DNA of 4,631 nt from UHGV virus genome UHGV-0038887; one strand, given 5' to 3'. Positions within the stretch are counted from its first letter, which is position 1. Each line of letters starts with the position of its first letter. A model generated the notes under the pieces. That model saw nothing but the letters and a program-made list of their open reading frames with translations, was not told where the DNA came from and did no database searches. The translations under genes were made by a program, and so were the position numbers. Origin of the DNA: a virus. This document shows, one piece after another, positions 1 to 4,631 of the stretch.

Positions 1-62
1 TCGTTGTTAATGAGCACGACAATCATGACCGCCAACGACTGGATTCTTCCTTGGTTTATACT

Positions 63-90
63 GGTGCGCATAATGTAAAGTTATGTCAAA
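63..90 (+). other. dif-like Xer recombination site, left prophage junction (attL-like)
   Basis: GGTGCGCATAA-TGTAAAG-TTATGTCAAAA. The 11-nt XerC arm is identical to E. coli dif (GGTGCGCATAA, from memory). The spacer is 7 nt (TGTAAAG) instead of TGTATA, and the XerD-like arm matches TTATGTTAAAT at 9 of 11 when shifted by 1 nt (ungapped 20 of 28 overall). Confidence 0.75.
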
Positions 91-107: not shown

Positions 108-227
108 TTATAAACGGATACCGCCACGCATTGAGCGGGCTTTAAAGTTCTTCTTATGCGACTTCGCATACTTGCGGAACGAACGGCGGGAAGAACGCTT
201 AGACATACGTCTACGGGAACGAGCCAT
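108..227 (-). CDS. VP8: Small basic DNA-binding protein (VP8/ORF8-like, analogous to phiX174 J), 39 aa
   Basis: Hand translation of the reverse complement of 108-227 gives MARSRRRMSKRSSRRSFRKYAKSHKKNFKARSMRGGIRL then TAA; 17 of 39 residues are Arg or Lys. GGAGG lies 5 nt upstream of the ATG and overlaps the VP2 stop codon. Not in the supplied ORF track, presumably below its length cutoff. Confidence 0.75.
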   Translation of the reverse strand: MARSRRRMSKRSSRRSFRKYAKSHKKNFKARSMRGGIRL

Positions 228-229
228 AA

Positions 230-1000
230 TTACCTCCGATAATTGTTAATCAACTGCTGCTGGAACTGTGAAGGGGGGAAGCGTCCCCCCTTGTTTACTT
301 TCTTCGCCGAATTAGCCTCATGGTCACGCTTATAAGAACTAAGCCAAGTATTAAGCCCGCCGATAAGACCGCCAGAAGAAGCATCCATATTGACACGTGC
401 ACTTTCAGCTCCAACAGGTGTATTCAAATAATCAGCCAGAACCTTGTCCTGAACAGTCTGATATTGAGTTCTAATCCGCTGTGCAGAGCTAAGGCCTGTC
501 TGTGCTTCGATATTAGCTCTCCGACTTGCCTCGGTCAAAATCTGCTGATTGGTCAGATTAGACTGTGTTTTCATGTTCTCAACGTTCTGGAGAGCGGCAG
601 CAGCCTGTGCATCCTTAAGACGTACATCAGCCGCACTATTCGCAATCTGGTTACGCTGCAAAGCAATCTGTGACTCAATACCTTCCTTAGCAACCTGTTG
701 CTGTTGACGCTTCGTTAAGGCATCAAATGCAGCAACGGCAGAACTGACGGCACCAGAAAAATCAGCAGGCTGGGCAGCCTGAATACCTGACGAACTGACG
801 GAACCAAGACCACCGGAACCTGTAACGGCCAGAATCGGGTTAAGGCCAGCTTTCCGTAAATCCTGAACACGATACTGGATACCATTTTTGGCCAAATCCA
901 TCGTAATCTTATTGGCACGGTCAGCCGAAGATTTCGCGGAATGGGCACCAAGAAGAGCAGAACCAATAGCGCCAGCAGCGCCAGCAATTGCACTCCACAT
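230..1000 (-). CDS. VP2: Minor capsid / DNA pilot protein VP2
   Basis: 256-aa ORF directly downstream of the capsid gene. Gly/Ala-rich N-terminus (AIAGAAGAIGSALLGA), a Gln-rich central segment, and an RKAGLNP motif typical of gokushovirus VP2 as I recall it. AGGTGA Shine-Dalgarno 4-5 nt before the ATG. Confidence 0.85.
   Translation of the reverse strand: MWSAIAGAAGAIGSALLGAHSAKSSADRANKITMDLAKNGIQYRVQDLRKAGLNPILAVTGSGGLGSVSSSGIQAAQPADFSGAVSSAVAAFDALTKRQQQQVAKEGIESQIALQRNQIANSAADVRLKDAQAAAALQNVENMKTQSNLTNQQILTEASRRANIEAQTGLSSAQRIRTQYQTVQDKVLADYLNTPVGAESARVNMDASSGGLIGGLNTWLSSYKRDHEANSAKKVNKGGRFPPSQFQQQLINNYRR
271..292. repeat. GC-rich inverted repeat (AAGGGGGGA / TCCCCCCTT, 4-nt loop AGCG) inside the 3' end of VP2
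   Basis: Direct reading: 271-279 is the reverse complement of 284-292, giving a 9-bp stem with a G6/C6 core. It encodes the GGRFPPS segment of VP2, about 45 nt upstream of the VP8 start. Function unknown. Confidence 0.5.
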
Positions 1001-1013
1001 AATTTCACCTCAT

Positions 1014-1036
1014 AAAAAAAGGCCTCCGAAGAGGCC
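1014..1036 (-). terminator. Intrinsic-terminator-like hairpin between VP1 and VP2
   Basis: On the minus-strand transcript: GGCCUC-UUCG-GAGGCC (6-bp GC-rich stem, UUCG tetraloop; plus 1021-1036) followed immediately by U7 (plus A7 at 1014-1020). It sits 15 nt after the VP1 stop and just upstream of the VP2 ribosome-binding site. Confidence 0.6.
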
Positions 1037-1050
1037 AAATGACGAAACGA

Positions 1051-2763
1051 TTAAAAATGGTCAATAAGACCTGGTACAGAGTATACAGGCATGGGCCGCA
1101 CACACTTCAAGTCAAAGAACGCATCCATAATGAACTGGGGTTCGTCCTGTACAGCAAGAACGCGTTTCATCGGTGGATTCTCTTCAATGAATTCCTGATT
1201 CAGTGCAGGAAGAGAGTCGAACCGCTGGGCTAAATGCCACACATCGAGAGATTGCGGGTCTGTGGAACGTAATTTACCAGTAATCTGAGATGGTCGGTAG
1301 CGGTACTCTGCATAACGTTCCTGATAACCAAAAACTTCCTCATCCTTCTCGTTACCTTGTGCATAAATCTCCTTGTTAAAAACAGCCTGTTCGCCCAGAT
1401 GGGCCAGTGCAGGCCAGTAAAAATCAAAACGAGTCAGACGGGAAAACATACGCGGAATACCTTGCTGATAGGTCAAGTCGGCACGAACGCTGACAAGACC
1501 AATCACAAAACAATGCTCAACGAAGGAATGAGAGAAACCACGGTTTACACCTCCTGCAACGCCATAAGCGGCTAAGTTACCCTGTGGGGTGGAGTCGGTA
1601 GTAGCGGAGTTCTGGAGAACGGGGTTCACATTAATATCAAACGTACCAGAACCAAGATACTCGGGACGCTGTACACGGGCATCCGGCGAAATAACGCCAA
1701 AATGGGAGCGGATAATCTCAATATAACGAGTACCACCGCGAGCATCACGCTCAAGCAGCCGCTGAAGCTGGAACGCCTGACGAAGCGAATTGATTGTCAG
1801 ATTATCAACAACCTCACCGCCAGACTGCTTCAACTTAACGGGCGGATTTCTTTCATCAAATCCGGCAACCGCATAAGACAACGCACCTTCATCACCAATA
1901 GTAACAGGTGGAAACTTCCAATTACCTACACGATCCGTAGATAAATACATTTGAGAAGCCCCAATGTCATCATATGCAGAATTGGGCTGCGTACCCATAA
2001 CCAATTTATAGGGGTCGGAAAGACCAACAGAACCATTACCAGAAAAACCATAAGTCTTAAAGCCTAAACCACCTGGATAGCTGGGATATTCCAGACTGTA
2101 AGACGGTGGAACGCCAAGAGCAATCTCAACGCCTTCACCTTTCTGAGGCCATGGAAGGGCACTGGTGAAATAATCATGACGTTTTGCACGCTTACGCAAC
2201 GGAAAATTTGCAAGACCTGTTTCCGTCTCATCACCAAGCGGAAGCGGGGCGGAATTAATCAGGTTTTCATCACGATACCATTCGTTATAAATCAGGTTGT
2301 ACGCGCGAAACGGCAGAGCGCTCACACTGATACCTTCAATACCTGTGGGAACGCCAAAATAATCGGCAAGGGAACCTACAGGGAAACCGCCAGAAGGGGC
2401 TTTAATCTGCGGGATAAGATAATCCGTCGAATCACCAGGATTCTTCTGCTCACCGTTGAACTGTTGCCAGTGGTCCCAGACAAGACGATAGGGCACGGAA
2501 AAATACTGGATATCCAGGCGAAGGTTATCCATAAAAGGCACCACTGGCGTGGAGAGACGCGCCAGAATGGACGTCTTCAGATGGAACGTATCACCTGGTA
2601 AAGCCTCATCCAGAAACACGGGAATTAAATAACCTGCATCAAAAGAAGTTTTATAACCGGAACTGCGGTTAAAAACCGAACGCTGAATGTTGGCACTCGG
2701 GATAACTGAAAAATTATGCTGACTTTTTGAATTACTGGGCACTTTGCGACCAAATTTACTCAT
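1051..2763 (-). CDS. VP1: Major capsid protein VP1 (gokushovirus F-like)
   Basis: 570-aa ORF whose length and N-terminal region (…MDNLRLDIQYFSVPYRLVWDHWQQF…) match my recollection of gokushovirus VP1. Strong Shine-Dalgarno (GAGGGGGG) 3 nt before the ATG. Confidence 0.95.
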   Translation of the reverse strand: MSKFGRKVPSNSKSQHNFSVIPSANIQRSVFNRSSGYKTSFDAGYLIPVFLDEALPGDTFHLKTSILARLSTPVVPFMDNLRLDIQYFSVPYRLVWDHWQQFNGEQKNPGDSTDYLIPQIKAPSGGFPVGSLADYFGVPTGIEGISVSALPFRAYNLIYNEWYRDENLINSAPLPLGDETETGLANFPLRKRAKRHDYFTSALPWPQKGEGVEIALGVPPSYSLEYPSYPGGLGFKTYGFSGNGSVGLSDPYKLVMGTQPNSAYDDIGASQMYLSTDRVGNWKFPPVTIGDEGALSYAVAGFDERNPPVKLKQSGGEVVDNLTINSLRQAFQLQRLLERDARGGTRYIEIIRSHFGVISPDARVQRPEYLGSGTFDINVNPVLQNSATTDSTPQGNLAAYGVAGGVNRGFSHSFVEHCFVIGLVSVRADLTYQQGIPRMFSRLTRFDFYWPALAHLGEQAVFNKEIYAQGNEKDEEVFGYQERYAEYRYRPSQITGKLRSTDPQSLDVWHLAQRFDSLPALNQEFIEENPPMKRVLAVQDEPQFIMDAFFDLKCVRPMPVYSVPGLIDHF

Positions 2764-2813
2764 AAACCCCCCTCGGGAATCTGACTAAATTATAAACAAA
2801 CCACTGTATAAAC

Positions 2814-2900
2814 TGACACCTTTTTACAGGCTTCGTGGGAGCCGCCTGTAAGTTTCGGTGTCACCTGGCACAGTTACATCAAGTAGGACACTGTGCCAGG
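2814..2900. repeat. Tandem stem-loop module in the VP3-VP1 intergenic region
   Basis: Perfect 11-bp inverted repeat CCTGGCACAGT (2864-2874) / ACTGTGCCAGG (2890-2900) around a 15-nt loop. Immediately adjacent is an interrupted hairpin: TGACACC (2814-2820) pairs with GGTGTCA (2857-2863), and TTACAGG (2824-2830) pairs with CCTGTAA (2845-2851), around a 14-nt loop. No U-run follows on the coding strand. Confidence 0.6.
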
Positions 2901-2908
2901 CTGCAGGG

Positions 2909-3421
2909 TCAGGAGCCGTCTGCAGGTTTCGCGGGTTCAACACCCGCATCTGCTGAATTATTCACATCAGCACCGGAACGCTCCCGCGGGGACGCCGGAG
3001 CAGGACTCGACTCGCGAACGCTGACGCGTTCGGTCGCCGACTCCTCTCCGCCGCTCAATAATCCAAGCTCACGCGCTTTACTCCAGTTCTGCGGGTCACT
3101 CATCCACTCAACGTACTGCTTAACGTTGTTACCAAACATCGAGCGAATCGTGGACGGCAGGCTGTTAAAGTCGTCGTTAACGTCGTCAATTAAAGCCATT
3201 GCGTCCACATAATCAGTAATCGCAGAGGCATCGTAAAATTCACCACGCTGAGCACTGGTAAACACTGTCGTATCTCCCGTTCTTATCGCACGCTCAACAA
3301 TCTTGTTAACATCGCACTCATCGCGGAAATGCTGCTGGGTCATCGTAGGCTCTGTAAACTCGATGCCGGGCGACGGCGGCGGGTTATAACGGGTATGAAA
3401 CTTAGGCTTCGATGTACGCAT
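2909..3421 (-). CDS. VP3: Putative internal scaffolding protein (VP3-like); start uncertain
   Basis: ORF between VP5 and VP1 with an acidic, Ser/Pro-rich low-complexity C-terminus. The track ORF runs to 3511 (200 aa), but that first ATG has no Shine-Dalgarno and would overlap VP5 by 110 nt. The ATG at 3421 (MRTSKPKF…, 170 aa) has GGAG about 10 nt upstream and overlaps the VP5 stop by 20 nt. Assignment is by position and composition, not a recognised motif. Confidence 0.6.
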   Translation of the reverse strand: MRTSKPKFHTRYNPPPSPGIEFTEPTMTQQHFRDECDVNKIVERAIRTGDTTVFTSAQRGEFYDASAITDYVDAMALIDDVNDDFNSLPSTIRSMFGNNVKQYVEWMSDPQNWSKARELGLLSGGEESATERVSVRESSPAPASPRERSGADVNNSADAGVEPAKPADGS

Positions 3422-3671
3422 CTTCCATTTTCTCCAGGAACGCCGGACTGGCATCACAAACATAAACGCGGTCAATATCGACCGGAACCAGCTGCTGGTC
3501 CACAAAGTCATAAGCAGTCACACGGTGCAACGAAAAATCAACACGCTGCATACGATTACAGAACGCGTGCAGATTGCCTTTCGCAATACCATCATGCTGG
3601 GCCATAAACATAAAAACATCAGCATTAATCAGCTTGTCATGAATTACATAAACTGCATCAGAGTGAGCCAT
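3402..3671 (-). CDS. VP5: VP5-like small protein (proposed role in DNA synthesis/packaging, by analogy to phiX174 C)
   Basis: 89-aa ORF immediately downstream of VP4, with its start overlapping the VP4 stop by 14 nt and AGGAAG upstream of the ATG. Size and position match gokushovirus VP5. Confidence 0.7.
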   Translation of the reverse strand: MAHSDAVYVIHDKLINADVFMFMAQHDGIAKGNLHAFCNRMQRVDFSLHRVTAYDFVDQQLVPVDIDRVYVCDASPAFLEKMEDAYIEA

Positions 3672-4521
3672 CTTCTAACTTCCTCATCATTCGCTGGAAT
3701 TTAACCAGATTAAACTTATCCATATCCTGTAAGCGCCACGGGTCCAGTATATTTGCATTCAACTGGCGACACTCTTTATTCTGCTGCAACTTTTCCAAAT
3801 CACAGCCTGATAATAACTTGTCATAATAGCGGGGCGGTTTTATCTGACGACCACCACGACCAATACACGCATCTGAATTAACTATGTCATCGTAATATTC
3901 CATAAAAAAATCATAACCAATACCGGGTCTGTTACTCATGGCAGAAAACTCGGGGATACGGTCTCCGTAATGCTCCGAAGCACGGGAACCGGTGACTTTT
4001 TTAACACAGTATCGCGCCACGTAAGCAGCCGACTCAAAACTAAAAGCAGCAACAACAGACCAGCCAAAAGTCCAACATCTCTCAAGAAGCGAAGACCTAT
4101 ATAAATTAAATCTTCCAGCCTTGTGTAATGTCTTATCCGGAAAATCATAACCAAAAATAATCGCATGATAATGCGGTCGTTCTAATTTAGAACCATATTC
4201 ACCACAACCAAAAAATCGAATTGAAATATCATCAACAGCCAAAGACTTACGCAAACGCTTCATAAAATCAGTGAAATGTTTACGTACAAGAGAACCATTT
4301 TCAGGCAAATTCTCAGGGGAATAAGTCAGAGTGATAAAACAATTGTAATCATGCATGTGGGCTTCATGAACGCAACGGGTAGCCCAGTCACGAGAATGAG
4401 CAAGACGGCAACCGATGCACTGACCGCAGGGCAACTGGATGAATTTAGCGCCACGTGACGGCGTGAAAAAAATCTTTCCCGATGGCATCTGGTACGCGTT
4501 TAAAGGACGAGTACAAGCCAT
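3658..4521 (-). CDS. VP4: Replication initiation protein VP4 (HUH rolling-circle endonuclease)
   Basis: Rolling-circle Rep motifs: motif 1 CFITLTY, motif 2 HYHAIIFG (HUH), motif 3 YVARYCVKK with YxxxY catalytic tyrosines; also an N-terminal CGQCIGC cluster. Preferred start is the ATG at 4521 (MACTRPLNAY…, 287 aa), which has GGAGGTG 6 nt upstream. The track ORF start at 4563 (301 aa) has no Shine-Dalgarno and lies inside the dif XerC arm. Confidence 0.92.
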   Translation of the reverse strand: MACTRPLNAYQMPSGKIFFTPSRGAKFIQLPCGQCIGCRLAHSRDWATRCVHEAHMHDYNCFITLTYSPENLPENGSLVRKHFTDFMKRLRKSLAVDDISIRFFGCGEYGSKLERPHYHAIIFGYDFPDKTLHKAGRFNLYRSSLLERCWTFGWSVVAAFSFESAAYVARYCVKKVTGSRASEHYGDRIPEFSAMSNRPGIGYDFFMEYYDDIVNSDACIGRGGRQIKPPRYYDKLLSGCDLEKLQQNKECRQLNANILDPWRLQDMDKFNLVKFQRMMRKLEDGSL

Positions 4522-4554
4522 GACACACCTCCAGAAATCAAGGAGGCACCTCTT

Positions 4555-4582
4555 AGTGCGCATAATGTATATTATGTTAAAT
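4555..4582 (+). other. dif site (XerC/XerD), right prophage junction (attR-like)
   Basis: AGTGCGCATAA-TGTATA-TTATGTTAAAT matches E. coli dif (GGTGCGCATAATGTATATTATGTTAAAT, from memory) at 27 of 28 positions. The only mismatch is position 1 of the XerC arm. Same orientation as the left site. Confidence 0.85.
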
Positions 4583-4631
4583 CATGTCTGAGTGATGCGA
4601 AGTGCTTTTCTGGTAGTCGTTATTCGTTCAG

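What the first reader, a model, noticed from the sequence alone, without database searches (positions are those of the whole stretch)
1014..1036. UUCG-tetraloop hairpin plus U7 between capsid and pilot genes
A compact GC stem with a UUCG tetraloop followed by seven U residues lies exactly between the VP1 stop and the VP2 ribosome-binding site on the coding strand. Partial termination here would set the VP1:VP2 ratio, which is 60 to about 12 per virion in known microviruses, and the hairpin could also protect the 3' end of VP1 mRNA.
Basis: partly seen in the sequence, partly recalled or inferred. Interest (0 to 1): 0.4.

Follow-up and report, generated by a model that had tools for sequence, protein, structure and literature searches.

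The report
Transcription terminator after gokushovirus capsid gene
A short, highly conserved RNA hairpin followed by seven U's sits between the capsid and pilot-protein genes of a small single-stranded-DNA phage integrated in Escherichia coli, and it is almost certainly an ordinary intrinsic transcription terminator, like those long known in phage phiX174.

Summary
On the minus (coding) strand, GGCCUC-UUCG-GAGGCC (1036..1021) is followed directly by U7 (1020..1014). It lies 14 nt after the VP1 stop and just before the VP2 Shine-Dalgarno sequence and ATG (1000).

The window is an Enterogokushovirus prophage, about 87% identical to phage EC6098, inserted at the E. coli dif site. A motif this strict appears in only 17 of 20,000 dinucleotide shuffles, and it is the only such site in the window.

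All 13 related enterogokushovirus sequences keep the stem and a T6-7 run. Only loop base 2 varies (UUCG, UGCG, UCCG, all UNCG). By contrast, 37 of 41 fourfold-degenerate sites in the adjacent VP1 vary, and the flanking spacers cannot be aligned.

Most other gokushoviruses (123 of 171) place VP2 within 15 nt of the VP1 stop and have no hairpin. A few unrelated lineages carry different hairpin-plus-T-run elements at the same spot.

Best reading: a canonical Rho-independent terminator, functionally like phiX174 T_F but not homologous to it. VP2 and VP8 have no detectable promoter of their own, so some read-through is inferred. Termination efficiency, the effect on the VP1:VP2 ratio and mRNA protection remain untested. 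I rate this a new member of a known kind, of modest interest.

The parts
1051..2763 (-). VP1 major capsid protein gene (570 aa). Its stop codon TAA is at 1053..1051.
   Evidence: Pfam Phage_F, E = 1.8e-180; ORF list; homologous to EC6098 vp1.
1037..1050 (-). Variable pyrimidine-rich spacer between the VP1 stop and the hairpin.
   Evidence: It is 5-27 nt long and cannot be aligned among the 13 relatives. Its predicted pairing with the Shine-Dalgarno sequence is no better than that of shuffled spacers.
1021..1036 (-). Terminator hairpin GGCCUC-UUCG-GAGGCC: 6 bp stem (5 G-C) with a C(UUCG)G tetraloop.
   Evidence: Sequence; scan; energy -10.8 to -12.0 kcal/mol. The stem is invariant and only loop base 2 varies in 13 relatives.
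1014..1020 (-). U7 tract directly abutting the stem.
   Evidence: Sequence. T6-T7 is kept in all relatives, including L044 and L214, where the sequence downstream of the T run is replaced.
1005..1011 (-). Shine-Dalgarno sequence GAGGUGA of VP2.
   Evidence: Sequence. Conserved as (c)atgaggtgaaatt in relatives.
230..1000 (-). VP2 DNA pilot protein gene (256 aa). Its expression must depend on read-through of the terminator.
   Evidence: ORF list. Aligns with the annotated VP2 of EC6098 and mar4. No promoter-like site lies between the terminator and VP2.
108..227 (-). VP8, a small basic J-like protein (39 aa), also downstream of the terminator.
   Evidence: Read from the sequence. It corresponds to the 120-nt vp8 of EC6098.
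2789..2794 (-). Candidate -10 hexamer TATAAT of a promoter for VP1 (low confidence). It would mark the start of the transcript that ends at the terminator.
   Evidence: Sequence. In relatives the same region reads GTGTCA-17 nt-TATAGT. It was not picked up by the consensus scan.

Best explanation
The element is a canonical intrinsic (Rho-independent) transcription terminator for E. coli RNA polymerase. It acts on the rightward, coding-strand transcript of an Enterogokushovirus prophage or replicative form.

Proposed mechanism: as RNA polymerase passes the VP1 stop, the nascent RNA folds into the 6-bp G+C-rich C(UUCG)G hairpin directly ahead of a U7 tract. The weak rU:dA hybrid then releases a fraction of transcripts at about 1014-1018. 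This produces VP1-ending mRNAs whose 3' stem-loop resists 3' exonucleases.

Polymerases that read through carry on into VP2 and VP8, which have their own strong Shine-Dalgarno sequences but no detectable promoter. The element should therefore lower VP2/VP8 mRNA relative to VP1 mRNA.

Shown here: the anatomy, the strand and position, the E. coli host, strong purifying selection, and RNA-type loop variation. Inferred: that termination occurs, that it is partial, that it tunes the capsid:pilot ratio, and that it stabilises VP1 mRNA.
For: 1. Anatomy. A perfect 6-bp stem (5 G-C), a UUCG loop and seven U's directly adjacent, 14 nt after the VP1 stop on the coding strand. RNA energy is -10.8 to -12.0 kcal/mol. 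A d'Aubenton-Carafa-type score is +33 to +42, where above 0 indicates a terminator (the formula was recalled from memory).

2. Not chance. The strict motif appears in 17 of 20,000 shuffles and at only one site in the window. It is likewise the only strong terminator-like site on the coding strand of EC6098, mar4 and L005.

3. Host. The window flanks are the E. coli chromosomal dif region, and the nearest phage, EC6098, is an Escherichia phage.

4. Selection. Among 13 enterogokushovirus sequences, 37 of 41 fourfold-degenerate sites in the adjacent VP1 vary (mean pairwise difference 35%). Only 1 of 22 columns of hairpin plus T6 varies. The spacer on the 5' side cannot be aligned, and in L044/L214 the 3' side is replaced by an insertion, yet hairpin plus T6 is kept.

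5. RNA signature. The single variable column is loop base 2 (UUCG, UGCG, UCCG), which is the free N of the UNCG motif.

6. Recurrence with different sequences. L006 (AGGCGUCCC-CCCG-GGGACGCUU + U6-8), L109 (AGGCCC-UUCG-GGGCCU + U5) and L153 carry unrelated hairpin-plus-U-run elements at the same VP1-VP2 position.

7. The same 22-25 nt (CCATGGCCTCTTCGGAGGCCTTTTT) lies about 40 nt after an ORF, upstream of the nin genes, in lambdoid E. coli prophages. Lambda has a hairpin-plus-T-run between ren and ninB; I recall this as tR2.

8. Precedent. phiX174 has leaky intrinsic terminators T_J, T_F, T_G and T_H in its intergenic regions. T_J, T_F and T_G block 20-40% of transcription (bioRxiv 10.1101/2020.03.05.979765).
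Against: - There are no transcript data, so neither termination nor its efficiency has been shown.
- The stem shows no compensatory changes. It is invariant within the clade, so structure is supported only by the loop pattern and by non-homologous analogues, not by covariation.
- The 6-bp stem is short and has no upstream A-tract, so strength cannot be predicted. In phiX174, folding energy did not correlate with measured efficiency.
- VP8, possibly needed in many copies, is also downstream.
- 123 of 171 surveyed gokushoviruses manage without any hairpin here. Another 30 have hairpins at this position without a U tail, so a hairpin alone may have another role.
- Absolute invariance of both arms, against 35% neutral divergence, could hint at an additional sequence-specific constraint.
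Confidence: 0.75

Rival explanations
1. An RNA stability or processing hairpin with little or no termination. The stem-loop would act mainly as a 3' exonuclease barrier, or as an insulator that uncouples VP2 translation from VP1, on a polycistronic mRNA. The U run would be incidental or only a spacer before the Shine-Dalgarno sequence.
For: Thirty other gokushovirus lineages carry stable hairpins in the VP1-VP2 spacer without any U tail, often with UUCG or GNRA loops. One clade has 12-14 bp hairpins of differing sequence directly before the VP2 Shine-Dalgarno sequence. In phiX174 the same regions were described as mRNA-stabilising signals (Hayashi et al., cited).
Against: The T6-7 run directly abutting the stem is invariant in all 13 enterogokushoviruses. 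This holds even in L044/L214, where everything after it has been replaced. That is the defining difference between a terminator and a plain hairpin. Protection of the 3' end is also not exclusive of termination.
Confidence: 0.12
2. A hairpin in the packaged single-stranded DNA. It would be a signal for complementary-strand priming or packaging, by analogy with the phiX174 primosome assembly site and the G4 complementary-strand origin. Both of those lie in the intergenic region after the capsid gene (my knowledge).
For: The packaged strand has mRNA polarity, so the hairpin would also form in virion DNA. The DNA fold is -6.8 kcal/mol with z = -2.4. Its position after the capsid gene matches phiX174 and G4. 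The invariant stem sequence could reflect protein recognition.
Against: - It is a single 16-nt hairpin with unalignable flanks, whereas known origins are multi-hairpin elements of about 55-140 nt.
- Loop variation follows the UNCG rule, whose extra stability is an RNA property (recalled: Antao and Tinoco).
- The adjacent T run has no role in this model.
- The almost invariant 145-nt VP3-VP1 spacer, with two hairpins and a phiX-ori-like ACTTGAT loop, is a much better candidate for replication signals.
Confidence: 0.05
3. A palindromic double-stranded DNA binding site (operator) for a dimeric host or phage regulator.
For: It is a perfect 6+6 inverted repeat that is invariant in sequence.
Against: - Three of the four central bases are invariant and the variable one is exactly the N of UNCG, whereas operator centres are usually the least constrained part.
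- No regulator gene was found in the roughly 4.5-kb genome.
- Unrelated sequences with the same hairpin-plus-T architecture occur in other lineages.
Confidence: 0.03
4. A translational control helix. The spacer upstream of the hairpin would pair with the VP2 Shine-Dalgarno sequence, with the terminator hairpin on top, to throttle VP2 translation.
For: The minimum-free-energy folds of the window, EC6098 and mar4 pair the spacer with AUGAGGUGA.
Against: Shuffled spacers of the same composition sequester the Shine-Dalgarno sequence as well as the real spacer in 12-83% of trials. L004, L005 and L044 do not form the helix.
Confidence: 0.03

Closest known systems
phiX174 intergenic terminators, especially T_F (after capsid gene F)
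   Same: Both are in Microviridae of E. coli with unidirectional transcription. Both place a Rho-independent terminator in the spacer right after the major capsid gene, ahead of minor structural genes including the pilot protein (H or VP2). The phiX174 terminators are leaky and give nested mRNAs.
   Different: There is no sequence similarity. The phiX174 F-G spacer (110 nt) contains no site that passes the same terminator scan, whereas this element is textbook-canonical. In phiX174 two terminators (T_F and T_G) and gene G precede H; here a single element precedes VP2. The element is a clade-specific gain within Gokushovirinae, not inherited from a common ancestor.
Canonical E. coli and lambdoid intrinsic terminators with UUCG tetraloops (for example the lambda ren-ninB terminator, tR2 from memory)
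   Same: They share a G+C stem, a stable tetraloop and a U run. An identical 22-25 nt sequence sits in lambdoid prophages upstream of the nin genes. Lambda has AGGCCTGC...GCAGGCCTTTTTATTT between ren and ninB.
   Different: The genomic context differs (dsDNA temperate phages). Whether the shared sequence reflects transfer or convergence was not resolved.
Hairpin-plus-U-run elements after VP1 in other gokushoviruses (L006, L109, L153)
   Same: They have the same position and the same architecture.
   Different: Stem sequences, stem lengths (6-10 bp) and spacers are unrelated. These look like independent origins or complete sequence turnover.

Membership tests
Intrinsic (Rho-independent) terminator | G+C-rich stem of about 5-12 bp with a 3-8 nt loop | tested here: met
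   6 perfect pairs (5 G-C) with a UUCG loop; -10.8 to -12.0 kcal/mol.
Intrinsic (Rho-independent) terminator | U-rich tract directly abutting the 3' arm | tested here: met
   U7 at 1020..1014 with no gap. T6-7 in all 13 relatives.
Intrinsic (Rho-independent) terminator | On the transcribed sense strand, downstream of a stop codon, in a host with a bacterial RNA polymerase that uses such signals | tested here: met
   14 nt after the VP1 stop on the strand carrying all genes. The host is Escherichia.
Intrinsic (Rho-independent) terminator | Conserved beyond neutral expectation | tested here: met
   1 of 22 columns varies, against 37 of 41 fourfold-degenerate sites.
Intrinsic (Rho-independent) terminator | Base pairing maintained by compensatory changes | tested here: inconclusive
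   The stem is invariant in the clade, so there is no covariation. Only non-alignable analogues in other lineages have different stems.
Intrinsic (Rho-independent) terminator | RNA 3' ends in the U tract, or measured termination | not testable with these tools
   No transcript data are available. The EC6098 paper does not mention transcription.
phiX174-type leaky intercistronic terminators (T_J, T_F, T_G, T_H) | In a spacer after a structural gene of a microvirus, within a co-oriented gene array | tested here: met
phiX174-type leaky intercistronic terminators (T_J, T_F, T_G, T_H) | Partial efficiency with read-through into downstream genes | not testable with these tools
   Read-through is inferred only from the absence of a promoter-like site before VP2/VP8.
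phiX174-type leaky intercistronic terminators (T_J, T_F, T_G, T_H) | Homology to phiX174 T_F | tested here: not met
   The phiX174 F-G spacer has no similar sequence and no site passing the same scan. The element is absent from most gokushoviruses.
UNCG tetraloop hairpin | Loop U-N-C-G closed by a C-G pair, with only N free to vary | tested here: met
   C(UUCG)G here, and C(UGCG)G and C(UCCG)G in relatives. No other column varies.
Complementary-strand origin of ssDNA phages (phiX174 primosome assembly site, G4 origin) | Extended, conserved multi-hairpin structure of about 55-140 nt | tested here: not met
   Only one 16-nt hairpin is present. The flanks are unalignable and variable in length.

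The most novel reading that the evidence does not exclude
The Enterogokushovirus lineage replaced the ancestral tight VP1-VP2 junction (no more than 15 nt, presumably translationally coupled) with a transcription-level valve. This element is the only canonical intrinsic terminator on a circular genome transcribed in one direction. It would therefore define the 3' ends of essentially all phage mRNAs and gate VP2/VP8 supply. The absolute invariance of both stem arms, despite 35% neutral divergence, would reflect a second, sequence-specific role, for example in the packaged single strand.
Probability: 0.2. Interest if true: 0.45.

Novelty: new member of a known kind. Interest (0 to 1): 0.3.

Why it matters
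EC6098-like phages are the only gokushoviruses that can be grown in E. coli, and nothing about their transcription turned up in the paper searches made here.

A well-defined, conserved terminator after VP1 gives a concrete handle for mapping their transcription units. It would allow tests of how capsid:pilot stoichiometry is set without the multiple terminators of phiX174, and it is relevant to engineering these phages.

It also shows that the phiX174 logic (capsid gene, leaky terminator, pilot gene) has arisen independently within Gokushovirinae. Most gokushoviruses instead abut the two genes directly. The mechanism itself is textbook.

Tried and rejected
- Chance occurrence: rejected by the shuffle test and by conservation.
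- Known RNA family: no Rfam match in the window at E up to 1.
- Shine-Dalgarno-sequestering helix between the spacer and the VP2 ribosome-binding site: predicted in some folds but no better than shuffled spacers and absent in three relatives.
- Coding explanation (overlapping ORFs 715..1038(-) and 888..1067(+)): rejected. Relatives differ by T6/T7 and spacer-length indels, and the variation shows no codon pattern.
- Bidirectional terminator: rejected. The other strand has A's, not T's, after the stem.
- Separate promoter for VP2: none was found with the consensus scan or by eye in the VP1 3' end.
- Rep (plus-strand) origin: a better candidate lies in the VP3-VP1 spacer.
- Homology to phiX174 T_F: none.
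- Stem covariation within the clade: impossible to assess because the stem is invariant.
- Literature: the EC6098 eLife paper does not mention terminators, hairpins or transcription. The EC6098 cryo-EM paper, PMC9645218, is not held.
- One Python run timed out and was repeated in faster form.
- TransTermHP and ARNold are not available. A consensus scan and a recalled d'Aubenton-Carafa score were used instead.

Full report
**What the window is.** All long ORFs lie on the minus strand:
- a replication initiator (3658..4563; Pfam REP_ORF2-G2P)
- a Chlamydia-phage-type scaffold protein (2909..3511)
- the major capsid protein VP1 (1051..2763; Phage_F, E = 1.8e-180)
- a 256-aa ORF (230..1000)

The DNA is 87-88% identical to Escherichia phage EC6098 (genus Enterogokushovirus) and to Microvirus mar4. 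Their annotation gives the order vp4-vp5-vp3-vp1-vp2-vp8.

The two ends of the window (4556..4631 and 1..90) match the E. coli chromosomal dif region. In genomes without the phage they overlap by 26 nt. The window is therefore a gokushovirus prophage inserted at dif of an Escherichia chromosome. That fixes the host polymerase as the E. coli enzyme.

**The observation.** On the coding strand:
- the VP1 stop is TAA at 1053..1051
- a 14-nt spacer follows
- then GGCCTC (1036..1031), TTCG (1030..1027) and GAGGCC (1026..1021)
- then seven T's (1020..1014)
- then atGAGGTGaaatt and the VP2 ATG at 1000

The hairpin is 6 perfect pairs (5 G-C) with a C(UUCG)G loop, at -10.8 to -12.0 kcal/mol as RNA. The consensus scan finds it.

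A strict version of the motif (at least 6 perfect pairs, at least 5 G-C, then at least T6 directly) occurs once in the window, on the coding strand. It is found in 17 of 20,000 dinucleotide-preserving shuffles. A d'Aubenton-Carafa-type score, with the formula recalled from memory, is +33 to +42 for the window and its relatives, where positive values indicate terminators. Rfam has no match.

**Comparative evidence within the clade.** I collected 13 enterogokushovirus sequences:
- EC6098 and mar4
- IMG/VR and metagenome contigs found with a pattern in the VP1 C-terminus, which is unbiased with respect to the hairpin
- E. coli prophages

. All 13 carry GGCCTC-TNCG-GAGGCC followed by T6 or T7.

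The only variable column in hairpin plus T6 is the second loop base, giving UUCG, UGCG or UCCG. That is the unconstrained N of the UNCG tetraloop. In the adjoining 110 codons of VP1, by contrast, 37 of 41 fourfold-degenerate sites vary, with a mean pairwise difference of 35%.

The spacer between the stop codon and the hairpin is 5-27 nt long and cannot be aligned. In two sequences (L044 and L214), 28 unrelated nucleotides separate the T run from the Shine-Dalgarno sequence. So selection acts on hairpin plus T run as a unit, independently of the ribosome-binding site.

Because the stem never varies, there is no covariation. The case for an RNA structure rests on the loop pattern and on the analogues described next.

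**Comparative evidence outside the clade.** I surveyed 171 distinct gokushovirus VP1 ends that share the PGLIDHF C-terminus:
- 123 have the next long ORF (VP2) starting within 15 nt, often as TAATG, with no hairpin.
- 48 have longer spacers.
- 9 of those 48 contain a hairpin with a T-rich tail. Five of the nine are enterogokushoviruses. L109 (AGGCCC-TTCG-GGGCCT + T5) and L153 are convincing and unrelated in sequence.
- 30 contain a hairpin without a T tail.

L006 (60% VP1 identity) has AGGCGTCCC-CCCG-GGGACGCTT + T6-8. The nearest enterobacterial relative outside the genus, an Intestinirhabdus prophage with 62% VP1 identity, has none.

The element is therefore a derived, clade-specific insertion at a junction that is ancestrally tight. 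The hairpin-plus-U-run architecture has arisen more than once at this junction.

**Other support.** An identical 22-25 nt sequence (CCATGGCCTCTTCGGAGGCCTTTTT) occurs in lambdoid E. coli prophages. There it lies about 40 nt after a co-oriented ORF and upstream of the nin genes. Phage lambda has a hairpin plus T run between ren and ninB, which I recall as tR2.

In EC6098, mar4 and L005 this is the only strong terminator-like site on the coding strand. L004 has one more, described under "Seen in passing".

**How it most likely works.** It is an intrinsic terminator. The nascent RNA hairpin forms against a U7:dA7 hybrid and releases a fraction of polymerases just after VP1.

No promoter-like site lies between it and VP2/VP8, and VP2 is an essential virion protein in microviruses. 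Some read-through must therefore occur. The element should make VP1-ending mRNAs more abundant than VP2/VP8-containing ones and leave them with a protective 3' stem-loop.

This is the logic established for phiX174. There, T_J, T_F, T_G and T_H sit in the intergenic regions, and the first three stop only 20-40% of transcription. The steps from "has the anatomy" to "terminates partially and sets the ratio" are inference.

Three cautions apply:
- The figure of 60 to about 12 is the phiX174 F:H ratio, from my knowledge. I found no gokushovirus measurement.
- VP8 is also downstream of the terminator.
- In phiX174, folding energy did not predict efficiency.

**Rivals.**
1. *A stabilising or insulating hairpin without termination.* The many U-less hairpins in other lineages favour this. 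The invariant abutting T run argues against it for this clade.
2. *A hairpin in the packaged single strand, such as a complementary-strand origin like those in the phiX174 and G4 F-G spacers (my knowledge).* The hairpin does fold as DNA at -6.8 kcal/mol. However, it is a lone 16-nt hairpin with unalignable flanks, and its loop variation obeys an RNA-specific rule. The nearly invariant VP3-VP1 spacer is a much better home for replication signals.
3. *A palindromic operator.* This does not fit a constrained centre or the lack of any regulator gene.
4. *A helix pairing the spacer with the VP2 Shine-Dalgarno sequence.* It appears in some folds but is no better than shuffled spacers and is missing in three relatives. 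I rejected it.

**Comparison with known systems.** In function it matches phiX174 T_F. It is not homologous to T_F: the phiX174 F-G spacer has no similar sequence and does not pass the same scan. It meets every sequence-level criterion of an intrinsic terminator. The experimental criterion cannot be tested here. The EC6098 description paper does not mention terminators, hairpins or transcription, and a full-text search for gokushovirus plus terminator found nothing relevant.

**Verdict.** The feature is real, strongly conserved and almost certainly functional. It is of an ordinary kind: a new member (a gokushovirus example) of a known kind (intrinsic terminators between microvirus structural genes). 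Interest is modest.

**Seen in passing.**
- A probable replication origin hairpin in the VP3-VP1 spacer, with a loop resembling the phiX174 nick site.
- A conserved G6/C6 hairpin inside the VP2 3' end.
- A separate gokushovirus clade with long hairpins of differing sequence, without U tails, before VP2.

Noticed in passing
window 2866..2900 (minus strand), within the VP3-VP1 spacer 2764..2908: Hairpin CCTGGCACAGT-(gtcctacttgatgta)-ACTGTGCCAGG. Its loop contains ACTTGAT, the core of the phiX174 origin nick site (ACTTG/ATA, recalled from memory). About 44 nt here match distant gokushoviruses at 95% (Eel River pequenovirus, bajarodmic viruses, Kummerowia gokushovirus), where the stretch is unannotated. 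The whole 145-nt spacer is almost invariant in the clade. It is probably the Rep origin, but the exact stem was found in only 5 of 240 fetched loci.
   Followed up: partly
window 271..292 (minus strand), inside the VP2 3' end: A 9-bp hairpin, AAGGGGGGA-CGCT-TCCCCCCTT, about 40 nt before the VP2 stop and the VP8 start. It is conserved at the nucleotide level in all relatives. In L004 and L175 it is followed by TGTTTTTCC (terminator-like), and the VP2 C-terminal reading frame differs after it, with the G run differing by one base. It could be a second RNA or ssDNA element, or a slippery run.
   Followed up: partly
window 4556..4582 and 63..90; flanks 4583..4631 and 1..62: The window is a prophage bounded by the host dif site (ATTTAACATAATATACATTATGCGCAC) and a phage-borne dif-like copy (TTTGACATAACTTTACATTATGCGCACC). 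The flanks are E. coli chromosome. The VP4 start codon lies inside dif, as annotated for EC6098.
   Followed up: yes
L084, L091, L125, L138, L108, L151, L075 (VP1-VP2 spacers): Another gokushovirus group has 7-14 bp hairpins of differing sequence but the same shape. They have UUCG, GAAA, GATA or TTAC loops and end directly before ...AAGG-n-GAAAGGTTTTTATG (the VP2 start), with no U tail after the stem. This looks like a conserved structure of unknown role that is not a terminator.
   Followed up: no
L290 1497..1525; L291 and L292 at about 1501: The same CCATGGCCTCTTCGGAGGCCTTTTT sequence occurs in lambdoid E. coli prophages between a small ORF and the ybcN/ninB genes. Whether this is a shared terminator module or convergence was not resolved.
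   Followed up: partly
window 1005..1013 (minus strand): ATG-AGG-TGA forms a two-codon mini-ORF overlapping the VP2 Shine-Dalgarno sequence. It is conserved as (c)atgaggtga in most relatives. It probably only reflects the Shine-Dalgarno sequence itself.
   Followed up: no
window 2789..2820 (minus strand): Candidate promoter for VP1: TATAAT at 2794..2789. In relatives the region reads GTGTCA-17 nt-TATAGT. The consensus scan did not pick it up.
   Followed up: partly
window 108..227 (minus strand): A 39-aa, arginine- and lysine-rich ORF (VP8, J-like) lies directly after VP2. It falls below the 40-aa ORF cut-off used and matches the vp8 of EC6098.
   Followed up: partly
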